Positions 13,375-59,467 of a stretch of 64,000 nucleotides of DNA are shown in pieces. The translations under genes were made by a program, and so were the position numbers. The notes under the pieces are model-generated. The model was not told where the DNA came from and did not search any database. It worked only from the letters and a program-made list of their open reading frames with translations. The stretch comes from a virus (lineage: Duplodnaviria; Heunggongvirae; Uroviricota; Caudoviricetes). The stretch is taken from the IMG/VR virus record IMGVR_UViG_3300022661_000054. One strand, 5' to 3'. Numbering within the stretch: the first letter of the stretch is position 1; each line of letters begins with the position of its first letter.

Positions 13375-16300
13375 TTAATTTAATTTAGAAGAACGAGCAA
13401 CTTGAATGCCGTCAGTTAGATAGTCAATATCTAATTTTGAAATAACAAAGTTATTATTTACATTATTAACATCATAATTAGTTCTCGGATTTAATAAGGT
13501 ATTTAATTTTTTATCACCTTCAGTAAACTCTATAGCAAGCGAGCTTTCTATCGGAACATTATAATAGAAGTCATTATTTTTGTCCAAATCTTTTATCTCA
13601 GCTAAAAGCTGCTTTTCTTGTGTTAGTACTTTTTCTAGCTCAAGAAGTTCTTTAGACTTACCTGCGTCTTCTTCTAGCTTATCAAGACTGTCAGAAAGAT
13701 TATTCATAGCTATCTTAAGACTTGCCTCAATATCATTTGTTTCGTCTAATACATTAATAGCTAACCATGCACTTAAAGCATTTGTCCAGCTTCTAAGAAT
13801 AATACTCTTGTCTTCGGTATTTTCGTCAGGCTTAGTTCTATCAAATTCATTGCTAATTGCATCAAAAACAGTTTTAATTTTGTTATATACAACACTTTTA
13901 TCTATGAGATCTAGCACTCTCTCTCGATATGAATCCGGTAACAAAGACTCGTCAACTAATTCATTATTTGTAATATCAACATTTACAAGCCAATCTAGCA
14001 GATCTTGTTTACTCTGTAGTTTATTTAGCAAGTTTTTATCAGAATAATCTGCATAAGATGGTGCATTTGACTCGCTTACTACTACATTACTGAGGTCACT
14101 TATATAATCTTTAATAGCATCTAACAAAGCACTCTCGGTATTAGAAGTATAACCAGTAAATGCTGATTTGACATTATTAGCAAGATCAGTTACTTTGCTA
14201 TAAAAATCATCTTCCTTAGCAGTAAACTCTGGATAGTTCTCTTCATATAGAGTGATGCTTGGACACAGTAAATTTGATACTACATTAAGTAGCTTTGTGT
14301 CTGTACTAATAATGCCATTAAGTTCTTCTTTTAGTGCTGCCAATAGTTGCTGCTTTTCGATGATAGTAAAGCTACTAACATTATCAGCATTAGTAAGTCG
14401 ACTAAGCTTGTCATATATACTGTTTATGATAGTATTTCTAGCACTATCATCGCCACCTTTTATTGCAGTTAAACTATCAGTTATACTGCTAGGCAATTGC
14501 AATATGGTAAAACTTAGAGAGTTAATAAAGTTTTCTATTACCTTTTTCTGTTCATGTTGCAGAGCAAGAGATTTAACTTTATCGAATAAAGCTATAAAAC
14601 TTTCCACATTCGCGGCTTCAGCTAAAGTAGTACGAAGTTTTTCGGTTCCTGTACTGTCTGTATAGTAAAAAACAGACTTGTAGTCATTATCGCCATCCAT
14701 AGAATCTGAATCTGATACATTGTCTAGGTTAGTAGCACTATCATAGACAAAGGTAGACATAGCCTTAAAACCGTCAGCTAGATCCTCATACATATAACTT
14801 GGCCAAACAGCGAGTACTGCTGCTTTTCCAAAGTCAAAAGTCAATAGAGTATCTAAACTAATACTCTCGACATTTGCAATATCTGTGTCTCTCACTGCTG
14901 TAATTAGCTCAATGTTATCTAGAGCCTCAATAGCTTGTTCATCTTTTACGATATTTATACTTTCGATAACATCATTGTAGTAATCATAGTCAAATGAACT
15001 TAAAATACCAGTAAGTTCAACAACCAACGCATCTAATGTTTCTCTATAGGTGTTATAGTATTCATTATGTAGATTTTCTACGCCTTCGATAATACTTTGA
15101 TCTGGTGAAGGCTCTGCAGTGCTGTCAAGTTTTAAATCAACCTCATCTATTAATGCATTAATAATCTCAATAGGGTCAGAACTTTCTAGGTTGCCTACGT
15201 CACTAGAGCTTTTGGTTAACAATATGCTTAATTGAGCTAACACGGCATCTAACTGTGCATAAGAATTTTTATTTGCCAGCTGCTCAATTTCGCTTATTAA
15301 AATTGGTAGATTTTCTTCTTCTAGCATCATTTTTAAATTCCGTAGCACCGAAGACATCATTAAGTAGTCAGCCTCCTTAGCACTAGTCGAAAGTGTGTCT
15401 AAATAGCTGTCTATTTGATCGTTATTAGCAGTTTCAACTAATTGATTTACTTTTGAGACAAGTTCTGGATAGTGCTCTGCCGTAATAAGATTTTCTAATA
15501 CAGAAATTAACCTGGTTCTACCTTCAAAATCAGCTACCTGCTCGAGGTCTTCTAGTATAACAGCTAATTTTGCATTATAATCGGTATTTATTTTTTCAAT
15601 GCTAGCTGTTTTAAGTTCCTTGATTAACCCCTCAGAGTCTACTCCATGGGCAACATTTTCAAAGTCATTTAATATAGCATCTTCCGCAAAGGTTATGTTA
15701 TTTTGATTAATTGAGTCTGTAAGGTAAGCTAATTCTGATAAAATCTGCTGTTGAATAGTATTAACATCTACTAGATCTTTTAGTATACTAACTAATTGTA
15801 ATTCCAGGTCGTCCTTTTCCTTATACTCAGTTAATGCATCCAACAAAGCTTTCTCTTTATTTAATGTTGTAGCTATTTGCGCATATTTGTCAAGAATTGT
15901 AGTATTAAACTCTTTATCCCAGCTATATGTGTCATTTTCAACAGTAATTAAGGACTCGAGTTCGGTCTTGGCTGTAGTGGCAAAATCAATTATTTTTTCA
16001 ATGCTTGGCTTAACATCAATTAATGTATTATACAGCTCAGATATTTCTTCGTCATTTTTACTTTTTAGCTCATTTACTTGCGAGTAGGCTGTAGCTACAC
16101 TGTTTTCAATAAGTTGATTAAGTACCTTTATATTTAGTACTGGGTCGTCGATAATCTGATAGCCTAACTGATCTAGGTTTAGTCCATATGTTGCAGAAGC
16201 AATACTAGAACCTGTATTGCCTTCTTCCAGTACAAGCTTGTAATCTACTAATCGAATGTCATCAAAAGAAAGAGTACCTTTTGACCCTTCAGAAGTCTTA

Positions 16301-41644: not shown

Positions 41645-42290
41645 CATTCAAAGATAAATATAATACATTCCTAGGCCTTCGCCTTACCACTTGTTATATT
41701 CAAGTACATTCGGTCACATAGATGACAAGTCTGAGCTTCGGGGAGCGACCCCTAACTTCTTGCCACGAAATCTGGGTACTTGGTTAACGGCCAAGCCCTG
41801 GACTACATAAACTATGACAGGATTGATTACCTGCACCCCTCACCGTCTATTCAGAAAAAATTAATATCAGTATTCCTAATTATATACTAGCATTAATTCT
41901 TTGTTAATTGTCTTCGGCTACTAGGAGGTTACTTGAATCTCTTATACCCACATTTCTATGGTTCACGACAAATGAGATTATTGGCATTTCCAAGGTGTAA
42001 TACAGTCACCAACTAAACCCTAACTTGGATTCGGCTCAGCTATTAACCAAGCTTTCTATTACTCTCACGAGACTCTTCCTACCATTACTTGCTATAACAT
42101 CAGCACATACAACATATGTTTCGGGTCCTACCCTTAACTCATATACTCGCATATATAAGTAGCGCGGTTTCCGAGGTATCCCTCTTATGTTACCATCACA
42201 CATTGTTCAGCTTTCGCTTAGTTGCATTCTCAGCACAAGAAGCGTGTCTTGTGTTTAGCACTGAGTTAGTAATTATATTTATCTTTCAAG
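41645..42290 (-). ncRNA. Large structured ncRNA, ROOL-like (GOLLD not excluded)
   Basis: ~640-nt ORF-free region closed by a perfect 15-bp helix (41650-41664 with 42272-42286); own promoter at ~42310; many hairpins; 3' motifs GGGGUCGCUCCCC and CUCAGACUUGUC recalled from large phage ncRNAs; next to the tRNA array. Confidence 0.6.
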
Positions 42291-43745: not shown

Positions 43746-43890
43746 TGGCGACTCCGATCGGGATCGAACCGACGACCTCCTGCGTGTGGAGCCTTATACT
43801 AGTCTTGCACTAGCATCTCTTTATAAGAGTGTTTTACTATTAAACTAATAAAGCACAGGCAGGCGTTCTAACCATCTGAACTACGGAGCC
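43746..43890 (-). tRNA. tRNA-Asp(GUC) interrupted in the anticodon by a nested tRNA-like element
   Basis: GGCTCCG/CGGAGTC G CCA; anticodon stem CCTGC/GCAGG; loop CTGT|C AC after removing 43787-43854. Confidence 0.8.
43787..43854 (-). ncRNA. Nested tRNA-like element (68 nt, CCA end)
   Basis: GCTTTAT/ATAAGGC T CCA acceptor; D-like GTTT..AAAC; stunted CTCTT-ATA-AAGAG; T arm GCTAG TGCAAGA CTAGT. Confidence 0.75.
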
Positions 43891-44427: not shown

Positions 44428-44987
44428 ATATATTTTATAATGTAGTTTATTCTCTTACCCTTTTATTTCACTACTTGCCTGCTTATCCACAGTAATATAA
44501 ATTACCTGATACGAGTTTCTCAAGGGTACAGGCTATAACTGATTTTATCGTTGTCTGCCAACTATCTTATTCCTTAATAAGCAAATTTGGGAGCATTTAT
44601 CGTTTGCCCAAACATTTTAGTCTTTACACCAAAATTCTATGTTTCAGATTACCACATTGTCAGCACAATGACCATTAAGGATTTTGTTAAGGGATATGTT
44701 CCCTTACTCGATGGACCAGGGTCTTTCAACCAGCCCTATCAAATAGGTGAACTCGCACAACAGTTCACAGTAGATATCACCACATAGACATCTTTACCTC
44801 ACATAGTTAACACTATGATTTTTGATAAAGCGGTAACCAGCCACACCCATGCTTCCTTCACTACTTAACTTCTGGTTTCATAGCTCGCATGTGCCCTTAC
44901 TATTTGATATTTGTGGGGCTTTATACCCACTCGTTTCTTAAAACGACAAGCACATAGTTATTCAACGGTAACTCTACGAAACCCACC

Positions 44988-47148: not shown

Positions 47149-47246
47149 TGGACACGACAGCAGGACTTGAACCTACTTATCTTCAAGAAATCAATCTTGG
47201 TCTTTTTCCTGGGATTCGGATGCTTTACCACATAAGCTATATCGTG
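47149..47246 (-). ncRNA. tRNA-like element with aberrant anticodon/variable region
   Basis: CACGATA/TGTCGTG T CCA, good D arm GCTT..AAGC, T arm GTAGG TTCAAGT CCTGC; no assignable anticodon. Confidence 0.6.
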
Positions 47247-48491: not shown

Positions 48492-49256
48492 TTACTTCAC
48501 GAAATACTGTAATGCTTTTGTAGCATTTTGTTGTCTCACGCCATAAGATCCAGACCCACATCTCTCATAATATTTTGCAAAATACAATGCTGCTTCTTTT
48601 TCATCTTGCATATTATAGAAAGAATTGCCTTTCGGAATTACTTCAAACAATTCAACAGATAAAAACCTTATCTGGTCTTCAAGTGTTGTGCCAAAATCAT
48701 TTAGAAGTCTTTGTTTCCTACTGCCAGCCCACTGACAAATACCATAATAAGTTTTTTGACTATACTGAGGCCATCTTGAAATATCAAGCGTTTGACCACC
48801 AACTTCTGCCATAATATTACCCATGATACCTGCACACACGTAATCATTAAGACCTAAAGCTTTTAATGATTTCCATACCTTAGTAGCCTGGTTATAATTA
48901 CCATCAGCCTTAAAAGAATTTGAAACTATCTGCTTCTGTTGTGAAACGACCTTCTTAGTTTCCTGTAATTCTTTTTTAAGCTCTTGGATTTGTGCGTCCT
49001 TGTCAAGAAGGACTTTCTCATTCTCAACAAGTGTCTCTTCTTGCTCAGACACTTTTGTTTCTAACTCTTCATTTTGTTTTCTTAAAGAATCAAGTTCTGT
49101 TTGTAATACCGATACTTCTTCTTTATATGAAGATCTGTGACTAGTAAAACTAATAGCTTGTATAGCTACTATAATCACAAGTGCAATAATTGTGCACGTT
49201 TTTATAAGATTACTGTAGTTTTTCAGATACTTCAGCATCTTAAAAATAATACTCAT
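48492..49256 (-). CDS. Membrane-anchored coiled-coil protein with phage-tail-type lysozyme domain
   Basis: N-terminal TM, coiled coil, CAGIMGNIMAE...GICQW...QIRFL..EL...FAKYYER. Confidence 0.75.
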   Translation of the reverse strand: MSIIFKMLKYLKNYSNLIKTCTIIALVIIVAIQAISFTSHRSSYKEEVSVLQTELDSLRKQNEELETKVSEQEETLVENEKVLLDKDAQIQELKKELQETKKVVSQQKQIVSNSFKADGNYNQATKVWKSLKALGLNDYVCAGIMGNIMAEVGGQTLDISRWPQYSQKTYYGICQWAGSRKQRLLNDFGTTLEDQIRFLSVELFEVIPKGNSFYNMQDEKEAALYFAKYYERCGSGSYGVRQQNATKALQYFVK

Positions 49257-50941: not shown

Positions 50942-51093
50942 TGGTGACGCGTACGGGAATCGAACCCGTGATACCGCCGTTGGTGCTAGATGTCAGACTC
51001 GAACTGACACATAACCTCTATCTCTAGTGGCCTGCCTTACCTTTTGGCTAATCTAACGAAAGGGCGGTGTCTTAACCGCTTGACCAACGCGCC
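50942..51093 (-). tRNA. tRNA-Glu(UUC) interrupted after position 36 by a nested tRNA-like element
   Basis: GGCGCGT/ACGCGTC A CCA; stem CCGCC/GGCGG; loop CTTTC|AC after removing 50981-51057. Confidence 0.8.
50981..51057 (-). ncRNA. Nested tRNA-like element (77 nt, CCA end)
   Basis: GTTAGAT/ATCTAGC A CCA; D arm GCC-AAAAGGTAA-GGC; T arm GTCAG TTCGAGT CTGAC; degenerate anticodon arm. Confidence 0.8.
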
Positions 51094-51331: not shown

Positions 51332-51414
51332 ATAAACTAGTTTATGCACTTAAAACTAGCAAAACGGTCGTTTCTATTTAACCCATTCAACAGAAACTGA
51401 AAAACATAAAGGTC

Positions 51415-51553
51415 TGGTGCGGGATATCGGACTTGAACCGATACGGTATCACTACCGAGGGATTTTTGGTACTTGATGTAGGTACTGCCCCTACTAGATA
51501 GACACTATGTCATCAAGCAAGTCCCTTGCGTCTGCCTATTCCGCCAATCCCGC
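51415..51553 (-). tRNA. tRNA-Leu(UAA) interrupted between positions 34/35 by a nested mini-tRNA
   Basis: GCGGGAT/ATCCCGC A CCA, Leu-type D loop and long variable arm; stem AGGGA/TCCCT; loop CTT|AAAA after removing 51467-51518. Confidence 0.8.
51467..51518 (-). ncRNA. Nested mini-tRNA (52 nt, CCA end)
   Basis: GCTTGAT/ATCAAGT A CCA; hairpin GACA-TAG-TGTC; T-like arm GTAGG GGCAGTA CCTAC. Confidence 0.75.
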
Positions 51554-51561
51554 ATATAAAG

Positions 51562-51619
51562 GCCAAGCTAAATTCATTTAAAAGATGATCGCTATTCAGC
51601 AGAAATAAGCATTGGCTCT
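51562..51619 (-). ncRNA. Y-RNA-like small RNA, copy 1
   Basis: AGA GCCAA-U-GCU UAUUUCU ... AGC-UUGGC; own promoter at ~51630. Confidence 0.7.
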
Positions 51620-51842
51620 ATGCGTTATATTATACAATCTAATTACTTAAAATTTATAGTGTTTTAAAAAAATTTTAAAAATATTTTTTCCGCTAAAGGA
51701 CTCTCACCTTTAGGAGCAAGGGTTGGCTTCGCGTTTGCAACCACTTCCAACGGTCTTTCTTCTATCATTAACTCTTGTGACCAGCATCTAATTCGTTTAC
51801 CTTGCTTTTTCATATCTAAATACTTTTAAGAGTTTTTCTTTT

Positions 51843-51917
51843 TGGTCGGCAACATTCGGAATTGAACCGCCACCCAGCCCAACACTCGGCCGTGTTCTAC
51901 CATTAAACTATTATGCC
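51843..51917 (-). pseudogene. Degenerate tRNA (GUG in an 8-nt loop, His-like?)
   Basis: D arm GTT..AAC, TTCAATT T loop, CCA, mispaired acceptor. Confidence 0.45.
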
Positions 51918-52568
51918 TAAACTCTGCTACCTTTGGGTCACGCTGTACAGGCGTCCGTTTCCAAAGTTGTACGTTGTAGCGTATTCTAATATGGCTTTAT
52001 ACTCACTACGGAATAAATGATAATCTTTCCCACTGATTATCTGACAACTTATCTCTCATCATTAATTCCACGTTCTGTTACCAGATAGCTTATGGCTTTT
52101 ACCTGAGCGAGCTTCATTCTCTCGGCAGGCGAAGTTGTCCCTACTGTCCTTAATCATCCGCCAATAATAAAACGGAACGGCCTATGCTAGTTAATGGCCT
52201 GCGGGCGGTTCATCTATGAGGAAATGACCTTGTAATGACCCTTACGGAGCATCCAACTAATCATCTATTCCACAGTGCATCCTCATAGACATATCGGAGT
52301 TCAACCGAATTTATTTTTTTAAGTTTTTTATCAATCTCATAAGCATTACTTATCTCATTGAAAGGTTTTCAACACTTACAAACCAATTTAAGGCTGTTCA
52401 TCACACTCCATTTACCACTGCTGCTTCTTCGCTAGAGTTAGGCGTTGACCTTAAATCACAGCCTAAACCAACGCTTCGTGGCACCTAACGTATTTTATTA
52501 TACAATGTGTTCTTTATAAATTTAGCACTTATTAAATTAATAATTTAATAAATTATTAAAAATATTTG

Positions 52569-52682
52569 GACTAGCTAAAAGGTGCTCTACCGCTGAGCTA
52601 CATTTCACCTAACAGATGAAATGGTTGGATTCGAACCAACGACCACCCGCTTAAAAGGCGTTAAGAAATAAGCATAGTCTCT
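52569..52682 (-). ncRNA. Y-RNA-like RNA, copy 2, enclosing a circularly permuted tRNA-Lys(UUU)-like domain (YrlA-like)
   Basis: GACUA-U-GCU/AGC-UAGUC stem; order anticodon hairpin - T arm - loop-closed acceptor stem - D arm. Confidence 0.8.
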
Positions 52683-52706
52683 ATAAATATATTACAATAA
52701 AATATA

Positions 52707-54704
52707 TTAATTATTAACAAAAGCTACTAATTTTTCTAATTCATAACTTCTGATAATGGTCTGCTTTACAGGGTCGATATCATCAGAGTCTTCAGAAATG
52801 ACTGGAGCATAAGTATCATCAAATACAACGTTTGCATCCATAGGATTATCCGCAAGCTCGCCACGACACTCGGCAATCATACCAATATTAACGTCAAGAT
52901 AATTAGCCTGTAAGTATTTTTCGATAGTCTTAAAACCTTCAGGTCTAATTACTCTATCATCACTGTCAAGAATCTGATTAAGAATGACTACTTCTCGATT
53001 CTGAATGTCAATAGCAAAAGCTACGCAAGCACGAGAATCACCATAAACCTTAAACTGCATCTCAATGTTCTTAGGATCCCAAGCTTTAGTATTAAGATTT
53101 TCTTTATTCTGGTAACCAGCATAAATCTCACCACTGTTAAGTTCACTGCAGTAACCATGGAAAGTCTGAACTACATACTTATAACCTTTTTTGGCAAGAG
53201 AGTCGAGGTTAATATCAAAGTACTCTGCACCATTAGGACCAGTAATATCACCGGAGAACAGGATATCATTTCCAAAAGATTTTGCACCATAATTGAACCA
53301 GCCCATAGTAGACAAATTATCATCTTTATCTACAACGATAAGAGAAGAATCAATATCAAAAGCTTTCTTCCAATGTACAAAAGTTCTAATATTATTTCCA
53401 GTACAAGGTATACGGCTTCCAATAGGAAGTACATCAATACCCTTACCGCTAGCAGAAGTATTAGTAGGCATACCTAACTTATAGAAATTATCAGCTACAT
53501 AAATCTTACCAAGAGAAGGCAAAGACTTGTAATATTCTTTAATCTTATCAAGACAAACAGAAGCAAGGAACTTACGTGTATTTTCGTTAAGTCTAGACTT
53601 TCGCCATTTAGCTTCATAGTCAGTTTCCTTGTGAGTTTTTACTTTATTATTATGGAAGTAAGTAAAGGTTCTTGCTTCAGTATCATCTGCTGAAAGAGTT
53701 GCAAGAAGCTGATAAAGAACTACAGGATTAGATGCAGGAATCATATTAAGAATTTCAACAGCTTCCTGAGGATTTGCTCTTGAAAGAAGCATCTTAATGC
53801 GACGTTCTAACATAGAACCATTAGAAGCATAAATATCAGCCGCAGCAACAATATCACCATCGGAAAGCATTTTAAGAGCCGCTCTATCAGGGGACTGCAC
53901 ATTAGTTTCTTTGGGTAATTTTAGGTTGCCAAGAGAAACGATTTTATTAAAATACTTTGCCTGTTTCTTAGACATAGGACAATGTTTTACATAAGGAATA
54001 TAAGAAGCAATTTCACTGAAATGCATCTGTAATTCTTTCCAAGCATAAGGATTCTTTTTGCAATTCTTGAATTGTGCTTTATCTCCAAATCTTTGAACAG
54101 AAAGCTTTACAATATCTTTTTTATCTAAGAATCTAGCAAATCTTTTATCTGTAGGAAGGAGCGCAAAAACATTGTCTTTACACTTAATTTCCTCTGACCC
54201 ATCATAAAAACCATTAGTAAACAAAGTAAGAAATTCAGCTAATTCATCACACGAAAACGGACGAGTGTAAGCACAATAAGCATCCGTAATATCGTATAGA
54301 GTTTTACGAGCTTCTTCATTATTTATAATATAGAAGGTTCTAAGTTTAAGCTCATCACCTACAACATATTCAGGAAGATCTTTCTTAAAAATTTCAATTC
54401 TACCAAGGTCCGAGCCATATGCAAAATAAGAAACAATCTGCTCAATCAAAAGCTCTTCACAAGTAAAATATTTAGTATCCTGAGGATTCTCATAAAAAGA
54501 CTTAGGAACATTCAAATGAAATTCCTCGTCAATCTGATTAACCATAGTCTTAGTAAGAAAACTAGGCTTATCTACAATAATACCGAAATTAGCTAACAAA
54601 TATGCGTTTAAATAAGCTGAATTATTTGTAGCCAAATCACTATCATCAATAACTAAATAATGACGAGTTCTTAAAATAGACTTCAAAGTTTCGTTAATTT
54701 GCAT
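52707..54704 (-). CDS. Helical N-terminal domain + C-terminal TerD-like domain; candidate Ro60/TROVE-related RNA-binding protein
   Basis: C-terminal VHWKKAFDIDSS, FSGDIT..GAEYFDINL TerD-like motifs; long helical N-terminus with PKSFYENP; flanked by five Y-like RNAs. Confidence 0.55.
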   Translation of the reverse strand: MQINETLKSILRTRHYLVIDDSDLATNNSAYLNAYLLANFGIIVDKPSFLTKTMVNQIDEEFHLNVPKSFYENPQDTKYFTCEELLIEQIVSYFAYGSDLGRIEIFKKDLPEYVVGDELKLRTFYIINNEEARKTLYDITDAYCAYTRPFSCDELAEFLTLFTNGFYDGSEEIKCKDNVFALLPTDKRFARFLDKKDIVKLSVQRFGDKAQFKNCKKNPYAWKELQMHFSEIASYIPYVKHCPMSKKQAKYFNKIVSLGNLKLPKETNVQSPDRAALKMLSDGDIVAAADIYASNGSMLERRIKMLLSRANPQEAVEILNMIPASNPVVLYQLLATLSADDTEARTFTYFHNNKVKTHKETDYEAKWRKSRLNENTRKFLASVCLDKIKEYYKSLPSLGKIYVADNFYKLGMPTNTSASGKGIDVLPIGSRIPCTGNNIRTFVHWKKAFDIDSSLIVVDKDDNLSTMGWFNYGAKSFGNDILFSGDITGPNGAEYFDINLDSLAKKGYKYVVQTFHGYCSELNSGEIYAGYQNKENLNTKAWDPKNIEMQFKVYGDSRACVAFAIDIQNREVVILNQILDSDDRVIRPEGFKTIEKYLQANYLDVNIGMIAECRGELADNPMDANVVFDDTYAPVISEDSDDIDPVKQTIIRSYELEKLVAFVNN

Positions 54705-54761
54705 AATACTATTCTCCTTAATTTTTATTATTATTTAAATTAAAACGAGCACAATATTTAG

Positions 54762-54813
54762 AACTGACTAAATAATTTTCCCATAAAATTGTTTAGAAAT
54801 AAGTACAGTTTCT
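54762..54813 (-). ncRNA. Y-RNA-like small RNA, copy 3
   Basis: AGA AACUG-U-ACU UAUUUCU ... AGU-CAGUU, enclosed by a 10-bp outer stem 54745-54754/54821-54830. Confidence 0.65.
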
Positions 54814-54838
54814 TTAAATGTTGTGCTCGTACATTTTG

Positions 54839-54896
54839 GTCTAGCTTCTGTTAATCAAAAATATATGGCTTGATAGTAAGAAATAAGCATAGACTC
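54839..54896 (-). ncRNA. Y-RNA-like small RNA, copy 4
   Basis: GA GUCUA-U-GCUU AUUUCU ... AAGC-UAGAC. Confidence 0.7.
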
Positions 54897-54910
54897 AATA
54901 AATAATAAAG

Positions 54911-54972
54911 GCCAAACTACACTACTTTTATGTATCCTGTTATACCAGCATTAAGAAATAAGTATTGGCTCT
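54911..54972 (-). ncRNA. Y-RNA-like small RNA, copy 5
   Basis: AGA GCCAA-U-ACU UAUUUCU ... AGU-UUGGC; promoter TGTATAAT at ~54990. Confidence 0.7.
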
Positions 54973-55152
54973 AAATTAATTACATCATATTATACAGTAT
55001 TAAGTTTTAAATTTTGCACAACAATAACTAAAAAATTTTGCTGTGCAAATAAAAAATATATTATAAATATATTATAATAATTAATTATATTATTATATAT
55101 AATATACTTTTATTATTTTTTAATTTATTATACGATAAATTTTTCAGTTATT

Positions 55153-56695: not shown

Positions 56696-59467
56696 TTAAT
56701 TTGTATTTAAATAAGTTACTATAGGTTTTGTTAACATACAAATAGGATTAGACGTTGTTACCACTTGGCTATCATAAACAATGGTGCCATTATTATCTAC
56801 CGTCCAAGTACGAATACCTATCTGAATATTATCTCCTATTTTTGGTATATATTCAAAATATTCAGTTATGTTGAAATCTAAAGGTTTATTTAATGATTTT
56901 AATTTTTTTTCTTTTTTTACAGTGCCATTTACTATTAACTTGATAGTATATCCATAACTTTGCTTCAGCTCAGTATCTTTCTTACCATGCACTTTCCAAT
57001 AGCCCCAGTCTGAAATTTTAGAAGTTTTTAATTGAAAAGAGTTATAAGGCATTTTGTTATCCGTAGTGATAAGTTCTGCTGTTTTAACTGGTACTGGGCG
57101 GCTCTGCTCAGTTGTAAATACTTGTGAGAGTAATACTTCTTCTCCAGAGCTGTCGTTTTTAACACTTACAAGCATAGTATATTCAGTATTTGGAACTAAA
57201 TTAGCGCATTTAAAAGTACCAATACTAATATTGTCTATAGGGTCTGACATCATTATTGTCGGATTGATTTCTAAAGCATTCTTATTATTTATAAGTCTAC
57301 AACTACCAGATGTTCCAAATAACGTTATAAATGCAGCGTTAATTGTGGTGGGCGTTTGCTTGGTCAATATAAGATTTGTAGCTAGAAAATCTTTTTTAGC
57401 AGTAAAAGATTTTCCAGAAAAGCGTTCATACCATCTTTCTGCAGCTCCTCCTCTTTCATCACATAAGACATCTCTGTTTTCTTCTTTTCGCTGATTGCAG
57501 CGTGTTTCTCCGAATCTATTTTTGTAACAGCTCTCATAAGCTTCACAAGTTGTTTCACAGTTTGAATCATAATCTTTTTTAGCACAATAGGTACGTCGCC
57601 ATTTACTTCCATCTGAATTAGTACCACTATGTGGAGGCAGTACATTAGCATTTTTTATATTACGATGAAATCCCCAAATAGCTACTCCTGAACGCTCATA
57701 ATCAAAAGCCCAAGCACACCCCAAAGTATAAGGGTCTTTATCACTAGTTGCAAATTCATCAAACGTTTTAATTCCAAATTCTCTTCCAACGACACCTTTT
57801 TTATATTCTATATTAGTATCTTTTTCATATATAATTCGATCTAACTGTGCATTAATATCTGTATAATCTAAACCATTTTTATTACACCAAGGTATTAAAG
57901 TATCATTTGCCGGTGTCCACTGTACTAGCCCAAAACCACTACCTCCATCTTCGCCTCTACCTGGGTTCATACCAGATTCAACTTCCATATTACCAAGCAC
58001 TCCAGCAACTGCTGAAGGTGACCAACCTTTTCCACATAAATATTGCCAAATATATAAAGCATTTTTTGTCATTTTTTCAGGATAGCTGCGCAAATCTACA
58101 TTAGAACATGTGACATCAGATTTAGCTACAGTATCTAATACAACTTGTTGTGGTGTATCATCTGTAGTTTCTTCTGACTTATTAACGACTATTCTATTAT
58201 TTGTAGGTTGATAAATAAAACCATCAAATCTATGGTTGGGCGCGAGATCATTCCATTGACCATTAGTACCTCGGTGACGCTCCGCAACAAAAAAATGTCC
58301 CCATTTTGAATTGTTATTTGGGTCATAACCAATCCATGAACTATAGTTATTTGACCATGCACTTTCAGATGTTATAATAGTATTTCGATCTTCTGATACA
58401 TATTCAACAATGGCTATATGACCTTCGCCAAGGTCGTTTTTATGCCAGCAAGCAGCCGCCCCAACTTCTGGTTCAAAAGAAACTGTATAACCCTCTCCTT
58501 TTGCTATATCAACCCATTTACCTGGAAGTACCTGGCTATTATTAATAAACGAAAATTTACCTTCGCCTGTTATTGGATTTTTTTCAAGTTCACTATCACC
58601 AGTTAGTCCTGCATAAATTTCAGCAAATCTACCCCAAGCATACGCATTACAGTTTGGAAGTACAAACCAACTCTCTTTATCATGCGGGTTATGTGGGTTT
58701 TTACCTAGTTTTCCAGCCGGGCAAGAGCCTGTGCCCTCATGAGCAGTTTGTTTATTGCTGGCATAATAATTATAGATGTCTTGCTCAGCTTCCTTTGGTG
58801 GAATAGGCACAAGTTTGCCAGACACAAGATATTCATTTAAGTCAAATCTCGGGCCATCTAAGCTAGTTAAATTACCAAATGAGGTAAATACATCGACATA
58901 ACATCCAATATAATTTTTTAGTGCTACAATAGCATCTCTTGTGTAACGTTTACCGTCAAAAGTGCTAAAATTCATCTCTTTTAGATACTTATTACAGTCT
59001 ATAAAACCTGCTACATTACATTTGCCGTCGGTTATTGCTGTATTTATTTCCGTATTAAATGAGTCTATTTTCTCATTTAATTTGCTTTTAGAAATAGCTC
59101 CGCCTGAGCATTCTGAATGCGGATAATCACTGTCTACAGGAATAACAGAGCAAACATAAAATTTTAAATTAGGATACTGAGCTTTTAAGTCATTAATTGC
59201 ATTTATATACTTTTCAGTAATATCAGTTAATTTATAAGCACTATCCCAAATACAACTATATACACAATCATTAAAGCCTATCATTATAACAACGTTATTA
59301 ATATTTGTGGATAATGATGATATAGTATTTTTTGCATTAGTTGTTAACCAAGAAAGCTCACCAGAATCATCAGTAAGGTAGGAAAATTCGTGATAAAGCT
59401 CATCATTTCTTCTGTGTTGTTTGTGCATCTGTGCAGCTGTAAAATCACCTATTATTAGTGTTGCCAA
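56696..59467 (-). CDS. Multidomain virion hydrolase: SGNH-like + CHAP + phage-tail lysozyme + Ig/FN3-like
   Basis: IGD..MIGFND; LPNCNAYAWGR...GHIAIVE; AGVLGNMEVESGMNP..GLVQWTP. Confidence 0.75.
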   Translation of the reverse strand: MATLIIGDFTAAQMHKQHRRNDELYHEFSYLTDDSGELSWLTTNAKNTISSLSTNINNVVIMIGFNDCVYSCIWDSAYKLTDITEKYINAINDLKAQYPNLKFYVCSVIPVDSDYPHSECSGGAISKSKLNEKIDSFNTEINTAITDGKCNVAGFIDCNKYLKEMNFSTFDGKRYTRDAIVALKNYIGCYVDVFTSFGNLTSLDGPRFDLNEYLVSGKLVPIPPKEAEQDIYNYYASNKQTAHEGTGSCPAGKLGKNPHNPHDKESWFVLPNCNAYAWGRFAEIYAGLTGDSELEKNPITGEGKFSFINNSQVLPGKWVDIAKGEGYTVSFEPEVGAAACWHKNDLGEGHIAIVEYVSEDRNTIITSESAWSNNYSSWIGYDPNNNSKWGHFFVAERHRGTNGQWNDLAPNHRFDGFIYQPTNNRIVVNKSEETTDDTPQQVVLDTVAKSDVTCSNVDLRSYPEKMTKNALYIWQYLCGKGWSPSAVAGVLGNMEVESGMNPGRGEDGGSGFGLVQWTPANDTLIPWCNKNGLDYTDINAQLDRIIYEKDTNIEYKKGVVGREFGIKTFDEFATSDKDPYTLGCAWAFDYERSGVAIWGFHRNIKNANVLPPHSGTNSDGSKWRRTYCAKKDYDSNCETTCEAYESCYKNRFGETRCNQRKEENRDVLCDERGGAAERWYERFSGKSFTAKKDFLATNLILTKQTPTTINAAFITLFGTSGSCRLINNKNALEINPTIMMSDPIDNISIGTFKCANLVPNTEYTMLVSVKNDSSGEEVLLSQVFTTEQSRPVPVKTAELITTDNKMPYNSFQLKTSKISDWGYWKVHGKKDTELKQSYGYTIKLIVNGTVKKEKKLKSLNKPLDFNITEYFEYIPKIGDNIQIGIRTWTVDNNGTIVYDSQVVTTSNPICMLTKPIVTYLNTN

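What the first reader, a model, noticed from the sequence alone, without database searches (positions are those of the whole stretch)
51562..54972. Five-member covarying Y-RNA-like family surrounding a helical/TerD-like (Ro60-related?) gene
Seen: five elements (51562-51619, 52569-52682, 54762-54813, 54839-54896, 54911-54972) share the pattern 5'-(A/U)GA-N5-U(bulged)-RCU-UAUUUCU...AGY-N5'-3'. N5/N5' covary perfectly: GCCAA/UUGGC, GACUA/UAGUC, AACUG/CAGUU, GUCUA/UAGAC, GCCAA/UUGGC. RCU/AGY also covaries. The loops are unrelated. Three copies sit in tandem upstream of the 665-aa gene and two downstream with their own promoter motifs. Established: Y RNAs have a 5'/3' helix with a single bulged pyrimidine bound by Ro60/Rsr and a pyrimidine-rich single strand, and are encoded beside the Ro gene. 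Inference: the 665-aa protein, which has TerD-like C-terminal motifs instead of a vWA domain, is the partner. This would be a phage Ro-like RNP with a distinct bulged-U code and multiple interchangeable RNA modules.
Basis: partly seen in the sequence, partly recalled or inferred. Interest (0 to 1): 0.9.

Follow-up and report, generated by a model that had tools for sequence, protein, structure and literature searches.

The report
Y-RNA-like handle RNAs, TerD-domain protein
A large gut phage carries five small folded RNAs that share one conserved "handle" stem and flank an uncharacterised 665-residue gene, and because the same RNA-gene pairing recurs in related phages and many gut and rumen Clostridia, it looks like an undescribed counterpart of the Ro60/Y-RNA particle, although the protein is not a detectable Ro60.

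Summary
Five minus-strand elements share AGA-N5-U(bulge)-RCU-UAUUUCU...AGY-N5' with perfect, covarying 8-bp stems. E2 carries a permuted tRNA-like module and scores 39 bits on Rfam YrlA, below the cut-off of 69.

The handle flanks homologues of the 665-aa gene in all 16 IMG/VR phage loci. A variant handle (N2-AGCUA-8 bp-UAYUUC...AAUAUC-N2') lies just upstream of the gene in at least 58 of 81 Clostridia loci. No other neighbouring gene is conserved.

My verdict is a real modular RNA family, probably the RNA partner of this protein. It works like Ro60/Y RNA but is not a member of that family. Binding and expression are untested. This scan has found the same system on other DNA (e.g. e1-3617250, e1-5414868). 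I found no paper describing it.

The parts
54987..54996 (-). Promoter word TGTATAATAT (extended -10 type) in front of E5. It probably drives an E5-E4-E3-gene transcript.
   Evidence: There are 7 copies in the window, all on the minus strand, against 0.64 expected by chance. The word also precedes the ROOL RNA and E1.
54911..54972 (-). E5: handle RNA (GCCAA/UUGGC, ACU/AGU, bulged U, UAUUUCU). Its apical part looks like a decayed tRNA-like module.
   Evidence: The loop start AAUGCUGG matches tRNA-like-bearing copies in L004, L007 and L008.
54839..54896 (-). E4: handle RNA (GUCUA/UAGAC, GCU/AGC) with a simple apical hairpin.
   Evidence: The MFE fold reproduces the bulged handle, z -1.8.
54741..54835 (-). 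E3: handle RNA (AACUG/CAGUU, ACU/AGU; core 54762-54813), enclosed by a perfect 10-bp outer helix and ending 37 nt before the start codon.
   Evidence: The fold has z -4.3, with 0 of 200 shuffles folding as well.
52707..54704 (-). 665-aa protein. Residues 1-430 form an arginine-rich alpha/beta plus helical-repeat domain, and residues about 435-597 form a TerD-fold beta-sandwich.
52569..52682 (-). E2: handle RNA (GACUA/UAGUC, GCU/AGC) carrying a permuted tRNA-like module: a small hairpin with a CUUUUAA loop, a T arm, a loop-closed acceptor stem and a D arm. It starts 25 nt after the stop codon.
   Evidence: Rfam YrlA RF02553 gives 39 bits, E 2.9e-6, below the gathering score of 69. The fold shows all the arms.
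51627..51636 (-). Promoter word TGTATAATAT in front of E1.
51562..51619 (-). E1: handle RNA (GCCAA/UUGGC, GCU/AGC) with an unrelated apical part, about 1.1 kb downstream of the gene.

Best explanation
The five elements are small non-coding RNAs built like Y RNAs. Each has a constant handle: AGA, then an 8-bp helix with one bulged U, then single-stranded UAUUUCU, closed at the 3' side by CAAA. The handle carries an exchangeable apical module, which is a nearly complete tRNA mimic in E2 and assorted hairpins in the others.

Most likely the handle is the docking site for the neighbouring 665-aa protein, through its arginine-rich N-terminal helical domain. The phage would then make a set of RNPs that share one protein and differ in the RNA module. 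By analogy with Ro60/Y RNA, the module would direct or gate the protein towards partners. tRNA-like modules would recruit tRNA-binding enzymes, or stand in for tRNAs, which fits the gene's position inside the phage tRNA island. The same system exists in gut and rumen Clostridia with a co-varying handle variant.

Shown here: the RNA family, its structure, and its exclusive genetic linkage to this protein family across phages and bacteria. Inferred: physical binding, which domain binds, and what the particle does. The protein is not a demonstrable TROVE/Ro60 homologue, so this works like Ro60/Y RNA but is not a member of that family.
For: (1) The handle is real and covaries.

(2) Linkage in phages. 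The exact handle lies on the gene's strand, within about 700 nt upstream or 900 nt downstream of 49-62% identical homologues, in 16 of 16 IMG/VR loci (about 11 distinct). At least 13 different N5 sequences occur, each with a perfect complement.

(3) Linkage in bacteria. 285 loci in Clostridia-type genomes encode a homologue about 30% identical. In the 80 loci fetched from them plus one Logan contig (L017), 58 of 81 have 1-4 tandem elements within 800 nt upstream under a strict regex. That is 107 copies upstream, against 5 inside the gene and 10 antisense. The median distance from motif to ATG is 143 nt.

(4) The outer helix of the bacterial handle was not used for selection, yet all 6 of its pairs show compensatory changes. 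It is 67% paired, against 31-44% for slid controls. The whole-structure covariation score is 0.78 against 0.29 for shuffles.

(5) YrlA-like tRNA modules occur directly upstream of the gene in 7 of 8 bacterial loci and beside it in phage loci (31-48 bits).

(6) All-against-all clustering of ORFs from 97 loci finds no other conserved neighbouring gene.

(7) The canonical partner was not found. TROVE was not detected in 5 near-complete related phage genomes or in 5 isolate genomes that carry the cassette.

(8) The handle variant tracks the protein clade. The bacterial covariance model does not recognise the phage copies (best E 0.6).

(9) The N-terminal domain keeps invariant or nearly invariant arginines (R148, R301, R309, R345, R368) across phage and bacterial members. 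Its best fold match carries the label of ZorC's EH domain, and E. coli ZorC's EH-motif domain binds nucleic acid (PMC11946911).
Against: No experiment or computation here shows binding. No RNA-seq run holding this DNA could be listed, so expression and RNA ends are unknown.

Twenty of the 81 bacterial loci showed no element anywhere under the strict regex. Some of these do carry copies with one mismatch, and some have too little flank.

In bacteria the last element abuts the Shine-Dalgarno sequence, so part of the signal could be a cis-acting leader.

Neither the TerD domain nor the EH-like fold has an established RNA-binding role.

Co-variation of the handle type with the protein clade is also what shared descent alone would produce.
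Confidence: 0.6

Rival explanations
1. One reading: the 665-aa protein is a true but very diverged Ro60/TROVE homologue whose vWA domain was replaced by TerD, so this is simply a divergent branch of the known Ro60/Y-RNA family.
Confidence: 0.15
2. The elements are mainly cis-acting or antidote RNAs of the gene. They would be either an autoregulatory 5' leader that the protein binds to control its own translation, or, as in type III toxin-antitoxin systems, an upstream RNA array that neutralises a harmful protein effector of a defence or counter-defence module.
For: In bacteria there are 1-4 tandem copies directly upstream on the same strand, and the last abuts the Shine-Dalgarno sequence. In the window, E4 and E3 lack their own promoter and E3 ends 37 nt before the ATG. 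The protein's fold neighbours (ZorC-EH label, TerD) come from conflict systems.
Against: The copies are diverged, with unrelated apical modules, rather than being near-identical repeats (A6 has mean column identity 59%). Many carry elaborate tRNA mimics that a leader or antidote would not need. The phage copies E2 and E1 lie downstream of the gene; E1 sits behind its own TGTATAATAT promoter word and E2 behind a variant of it. There is no PADLOC hit, and no nuclease or toxin domain was detected.
Confidence: 0.12
3. The RNAs are independent residents of the tRNA/ncRNA island, for example tRNA decoys or processing substrates recognised by host enzymes through the handle. On this reading the neighbouring gene is linked only by co-inheritance and makes no physical complex with them.
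For: The window's copies lie at the edge of an 18-tRNA array that also holds ROOL and other ncRNAs. Phage relatives show the same island context. M. smegmatis YrlA, a known tRNA-like Y RNA, is cleaved by RNase P in vitro and can undergo CCA addition (PMC4201824).
Against: In bacteria the cassette sits in varied, non-tRNA contexts, and the gene is the only conserved neighbour. The handle type changes together with the protein clade. Linkage persists down to about 30% protein identity.
Confidence: 0.1

Closest known systems
Ro60 (Rsr) with the bacterial and phage Y RNAs YrlA/YrlB (Rfam RF02553; Chen et al. 2014, PMC4201824)
   Same: Small RNAs are encoded on the same strand beside one large protein gene, several per locus. 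Each has a basal stem with a conserved protein-type recognition module and a variable apical module. At least one per locus carries a permuted tRNA mimic in the order T arm, closed acceptor stem, D arm. The system occurs in both bacteria and phages.
   Different: The protein has no detectable TROVE domain and carries TerD instead of vWA. The handle sequence differs: bulged U plus UAUUUCU in phages, and AGCUA/AAUAUC internal loop plus UAYUUC in bacteria, in place of GNCGAAN0-1G. All copies score below the Rfam cut-off (31-48 bits against 69). The genomes checked that carry the cassette had no TROVE match.
TerD-domain proteins of tellurite-resistance (Ter) stress and conflict systems (PDB 2kxt, 2qz7)
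   Different: It is not in a ter operon. It is fused to a 430-residue helical domain. The Pfam TerD model does not reach significance on this protein. No RNA association is known for TerD proteins.
ZorC (EH-signature domain) of type I Zorya, and DUF4132 proteins
   Same: The best whole-domain fold match of residues 1-430 is an AlphaFold model annotated as a ZorC EH-domain protein (E 7.9e-9, TM 0.52). E. coli ZorC's EH-motif domain binds nucleic acid (PMC11946911).
   Different: There are no Pfam or PADLOC hits to Zorya components, and no zorABD neighbours. The label comes from automatic annotation of a predicted model. No ZorC structure was listed among the PDB matches shown.
MXAN_6230/SCO0854 family RING-domain proteins (NCBIfam NF041916)
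   Same: There is significant partial homology: residues 278-575 match profile positions 395-703, E 1e-24.
   Different: The score is 86 bits against a cut-off of 600. The N-terminal part of the profile, where the family's RING domain would lie, is not matched. Three actinobacterial loci of that family showed no YrlA-like RNA.

Membership tests
Ro60/Rsr (TROVE) proteins | Significant match to the TROVE domain (Pfam PF05731) | tested here: not met
   No Pfam family at E<=1 for the 665-aa protein. No TROVE hit among 10 plus 40 relatives.
Ro60/Rsr (TROVE) proteins | Profile-level homology to bona fide Ro60 orthologues | tested here: not met
   hhalign of A2 (64 family members) against A4 (36 TROVE proteins of Bacillota) gives probability 0.3%, E 0.22.
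Ro60/Rsr (TROVE) proteins | HEAT-repeat toroid fold superposable on solved Ro60 | tested here: inconclusive
Ro60/Rsr (TROVE) proteins | C-terminal vWA domain with a MIDAS site | tested here: not met
Ro60/Rsr (TROVE) proteins | Binds Y RNA through the conserved stem | not testable with these tools
   This needs RIP/CLIP or EMSA.
YrlA-type Y RNA (Rfam RF02553) | Score at or above the Rfam gathering threshold (69 bits) | tested here: not met
   E2 scores 39 bits, E 2.9e-6. Relatives score 31-48 bits. E1 and E3-E5 give no hit.
YrlA-type Y RNA (Rfam RF02553) | Permuted tRNA-like module (T arm, loop-closed acceptor stem, D arm) held on a basal stem | tested here: met
   Met for E2 and for 50 of 146 distinct family copies, which have a T-arm hairpin. 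Not present in E1, E3 or E4. E5 looks decayed.
YrlA-type Y RNA (Rfam RF02553) | GNCGAAN0-1G Rsr-recognition motif near the 5' end (PMC4201824) | tested here: not met
   The 5' strands read AGA-N5-U-RCU-UAUUUCU, where N5 is variable and covarying. The motif is absent.
YrlA-type Y RNA (Rfam RF02553) | Encoded within about 4 kb of a TROVE gene on the same strand | tested here: not met
   No TROVE match in 5 near-complete related phage genomes or in 5 bacterial genomes carrying the cassette. Controls were positive in Deinococcus and Bacteroides.
TerD domain family | TerD beta-sandwich fold | tested here: met
TerD domain family | Pfam TerD (PF02342) match | tested here: not met
   No hit for the window protein. 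Only 2 of 40 bacterial relatives hit, best E 2.4e-4.
Zorya ZorC (EH-signature domain) | Match to Zorya models, with the zorABCD gene context | tested here: not met
   No PADLOC hit and no Pfam EH_Signature hit. No conserved neighbouring genes. The only link is fold similarity to an automatically named AlphaFold model.
NF041916 RING_SCO0854 | Full-length match above the 600-bit cut-off, including the N-terminal part of the profile where the family's RING domain would lie | tested here: not met
   86 bits, covering profile positions 395-703 of 842 only.
Type III toxin-antitoxin (ToxIN-like) | Near-identical tandem RNA repeats upstream of an endoribonuclease toxin | tested here: not met
   The copies share only the handle. 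A6 has mean column identity 59% and the loops are unrelated. No nuclease domain was found.

The most novel reading that the evidence does not exclude
A second, TROVE-independent class of Ro-like ribonucleoprotein. A protein with an EH-like helical domain and a TerD domain would be programmed by a set of interchangeable handle RNAs, many of them near-complete tRNA mimics. Gut Clostridia and their roughly 220-kb phages would both use it to survey, protect or decoy tRNAs during phage-host conflict. The handle and the protein would have co-evolved into distinct phage and bacterial specificities.
Probability: 0.35. Interest if true: 0.9.

Novelty: new variant of a known kind. Interest (0 to 1): 0.8.

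Why it matters
Y RNAs are known only as partners of Ro60. Here YrlA-like, tRNA-mimicking RNAs travel with a different, unannotated protein. The protein family has 1203 representative clusters at 50% identity, 285 loci in bacterial species genomes, and members in large gut phages. The genomes carrying the cassette that I checked had no TROVE match.

If the protein binds the handle, this defines a new modular RNP, and it would give the first RNA-linked role for a TerD-fold protein. It would also explain a recurrent component of phage tRNA islands. Cultured hosts make it directly testable (Eubacterium uniforme ATCC 35992, E. ruminantium FB3002, Lachnospiraceae AC2029).

The handle RNA is absent from Rfam 15, apart from weak YrlA cross-hits, and could be added as a new family.

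Tried and rejected
- **Expression.** No RNA run holding the window stretch was listed. Only DNA runs from animal faeces and bovine gut were listed.
- **First phage scan.** The first related-loci run, with the single protein, found nothing in viral contigs. The alignment query then worked.
- **INPHARED phages.** Only two weak partial tblastn hits, both unannotated.
- **PHROGs.** One family of unknown function, phrog_33734, E 3e-14.
- **PDB sequence and profile searches.** Nothing.
- **Ro60 by Foldseek.** Ro60 was not listed for the N-terminal model in the PDB or among Swiss-Prot models.
- **ESM Atlas.** Only unnamed or "tellurium resistant like" viral clusters.
- **Bacterial model on the window.** The bacterial handle model R1 does not detect the window's copies (best E 0.59 with filters off). 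I read this as a distinct phage sub-type, not as absence.
- **Anticodon-like hairpin.** I considered the CUUUUAA-loop hairpin of E2 as a possible family feature. It occurs in only a handful of the 50 tRNA-like copies, so I rejected it as a family feature.
- **RING-type relatives.** Three actinobacterial NF041916 loci gave no Rfam hit at E<=0.5, and I saw no obvious handle in one upstream region. This is too few loci to conclude anything.
- **Literature.** Searches for TerD with TROVE or with tRNA-like, and for YrlA since 2018, found no description of this pairing. Burroughs and Aravind 2016 could not be retrieved.
- **Promoter scan.** The generic sigma-70 scan was not above shuffles. The specific word TGTATAATAT was.
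Full report
**What is in the window**

All relevant features lie on the minus strand. The 665-aa ORF runs from 54704 down to 52707. Three elements precede it: E5 (54972..54911), E4 (54896..54839) and E3 (54813..54762). Two follow it: E2 (52682..52569, starting 25 nt after the stop) and E1 (51619..51562).

Read 5' to 3', each element is (A/U)GA, five variable bases, one U, RCU, then the invariant UAUUUCU. After 25-90 unrelated bases come AGY, the exact complement of the five bases, and C(A/U)AA.

The word RCTTATTTCT occurs six times in the 64 kb, and five of those are these elements. Thermodynamic folds recover the bulged handle without constraint in E1, E2 and E4, and in the centroid structure of E3. 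E3 is further enclosed by a perfect 10-bp outer helix (z -4.3).

E5 and E1 each sit behind the word TGTATAATAT. That word occurs seven times in the window, always on the minus strand, against 0.64 expected, and it also precedes the ROOL RNA. E4 and E3 have no such word, so E5-E4-E3-gene is probably one transcript.

**E2 is a YrlA-like tRNA mimic**

Between its handle strands E2 holds a small hairpin, a T arm (GUUGG-UUCGAAU-CCAAC), an acceptor-like stem closed by a loop, and a D arm (GCUC-AGCGGUA-GAGC). This is the permuted order that defines YrlA (PMC4201824).

Rfam's YrlA model matches it at 39 bits, E 2.9e-6. That is significant, but below the family's gathering score of 69, and the outer stems are misaligned. 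ARAGORN does not call it a tRNA.

**The family is real and is tied to the gene**

An alignment-based scan of IMG/VR returned 16 loci (about 11 distinct), mostly from 200-237 kb phage contigs, encoding homologues 49-62% identical. Every one has the exact handle on the gene's strand just upstream or downstream. At least 13 different N5 sequences occur, each with a perfect partner. Many carry tRNA-like modules that hit YrlA at 32-43 bits.

In an alignment of 22 phage-type copies, 6 of 8 handle pairs show compensatory changes. The covariation score is 0.556, against 0.20 for shuffles (0 of 500 reach it) and at most 0.10 for slid registers. Because the copies were chosen for perfect stems, the 100% pairing figure is circular. 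The variety of pair types is not.

**The system is not phage-specific**

A search of 1.84 billion cluster representatives found 1203 relatives. A scan of GTDB species genomes found 285 confirmed loci, nearly all Clostridia: Lachnospiraceae, Eubacterium and Oscillospiraceae, including isolates.

Directly upstream of these genes lie one to four tandem elements with a variant handle. It consists of two covarying bases, AGCUA, an uninterrupted 8-bp helix whose 5' strand ends in YU, and UAYUUC. The apical module follows, then the 3' strand, then RAUAUC and the partners of the first two bases.

A strict regex finds at least one copy within 800 nt upstream in 58 of 81 loci. That is 107 copies upstream, against 5 inside the 2-kb gene and 10 antisense. 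Several of the "empty" loci have copies with one mismatch.

In a MAFFT alignment of 38 short copies, the outer helix was not used for selection. All six of its pairs show changes on both sides, and it is 67% paired, against 31-44% for slid controls. Overall covariation is 0.78 against 0.29 for shuffles.

The first element of an array usually carries the tRNA mimic. Seven of eight loci tested hit YrlA at 32-48 bits just upstream of the gene. All-against-all clustering of ORFs from 97 loci shows that nothing else in the neighbourhood is conserved.

A covariance model of the bacterial handle does not recognise the phage copies. The two protein clades therefore come with two handle types. That is expected if the protein reads the handle, though common descent would also give it.

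**The protein**

No Pfam family matches, even at E<=1. PHROGs gives only an unknown family, PADLOC gives nothing, and the PDB gives nothing by sequence or profile. NCBIfam detects partial homology to the MXAN_6230/SCO0854 RING-protein family: residues 278-575, E 1e-24, 86 bits against a cut-off of 600.

A second model of residues 1-430, built on a deeper alignment, is confident (pLDDT 87.6, pTM 0.77). It consists of an alpha/beta subdomain, helical repeats, a beta-hairpin and a long helix.

**Is the protein a Ro60?**

- Foldseek on the PDB and on Swiss-Prot models gives only generic repeat proteins.
- hhalign of the family against 36 genuine TROVE proteins, collected here from Bacillota, gives probability 0.3%.
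- The best whole-domain matches are AlphaFold cluster representatives labelled ZorC EH-domain (E 7.9e-9, TM 0.52), DUF4132, RING and "TerD family". The closest ESM Atlas cluster is a viral "tellurium resistant like" family. E. coli ZorC's EH-motif domain binds DNA (PMC11946911).
- TROVE was not found in five near-complete related phage genomes or in five isolate genomes carrying the cassette. It was present in only 6 of 301 sampled genomes of the same phylum.

Membership in the Ro60 family is therefore not supported. Functional analogy remains the best reading.

**Mechanism proposed**

The handle is the constant part and the only thing, besides the gene, that is conserved. The apical part is freely exchanged: tRNA mimic in 50 of 146 distinct copies, otherwise hairpins.

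I therefore read the handle as the protein's docking site. The likely contact is the N-terminal domain, which keeps five invariant or nearly invariant arginines across both clades. I read the apical modules as adaptors or decoys, as in Ro60/Y RNA.

The position inside phage tRNA islands and the tRNA mimicry point to tRNA metabolism or tRNA-targeted conflict. All of this beyond the genetic linkage is inference.

Three rivals are scored separately: a truly diverged Ro60, a cis-leader or antidote RNA, and mere co-inheritance.

**Relation to earlier work**

I found no paper describing this pairing. Chen et al. 2014 searched only genomes with TROVE proteins.

This scan has met the same system on other DNA several times and reached a similar reading. 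I re-derived the linkage, the structure and the negative TROVE tests independently here.

- the explicit two-helix plus internal-loop anatomy of the bacterial handle;
- the phage and bacterial handle split shown by a covariance model;
- the hhalign test against TROVE;
- the NF041916 homology;
- the TGTATAATAT promoter word.

**Limits**

No RNA-seq run could be listed, so expression, processing and RNA ends are unknown. No tool here predicts RNA-protein binding.

Noticed in passing
window 10167, 29034, 42309, 48305, 49308, 51627, 54987 (all on the minus strand): The word TGTATAATAT occurs 7 times, always on the minus strand, against 0.64 expected. It lies in front of the ROOL RNA, E1 and E5, so it is probably a phage promoter (extended -10 type) used for ncRNA genes.
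   Followed up: partly
window 41653-42289 (-): A full-length ROOL RNA (Rfam RF03087, 286 bits) sits at the far end of the tRNA island.
   Followed up: no
window 44691-44737 (-): A DUF3800-XI RNA motif (RF02975, 40.1 bits, just over its cut-off of 37.8) lies inside the tRNA array.
   Followed up: no
window 43749-43890, 47152-47246, 50945-51093 and about 51400-51545 (-): These tRNA matches are 95-150 nt long, that is, tRNAs with large inserts. The last one reads as a tRNA with a roughly 50-nt insert and is missed by ARAGORN and by the Rfam gathering-threshold scan.
   Followed up: no
window 51840-52500 (-): About 650 nt between E2 and E1 has no long ORF and is richer in G+C than its flanks. It ends in a weak tRNA-like match (51847-51917, 24.8 bits). 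There is no Rfam family match, and the fold z-score is only -1.7. It remains unexplained.
   Followed up: partly
window 13701-13742 (+): The bacterial handle model gives one weak hit (14.5 bits, E 0.88) with AGCUA...AAUAUC but no inner helix. It is probably chance.
   Followed up: no
L004 9082-9192: A related 233-kb phage has a sub-threshold RAGATH-33 match (43.6 bits against 120) within its tRNA island.
   Followed up: no
window 56696-59467 and 48492-49256 (-): Two genes with Phage_lysozyme2 domains (one also has CHAP) bracket the tRNA/ncRNA island. This supports a tailed-phage origin for the window.
   Followed up: no
L024 2318-2389, L023 2262-2337 and similar bacterial copies: Some middle copies of the bacterial arrays keep only a T-arm-like hairpin (GGUUCGAAUCC) as their apical module. 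This suggests stepwise decay or minimisation of the tRNA mimic.
   Followed up: no
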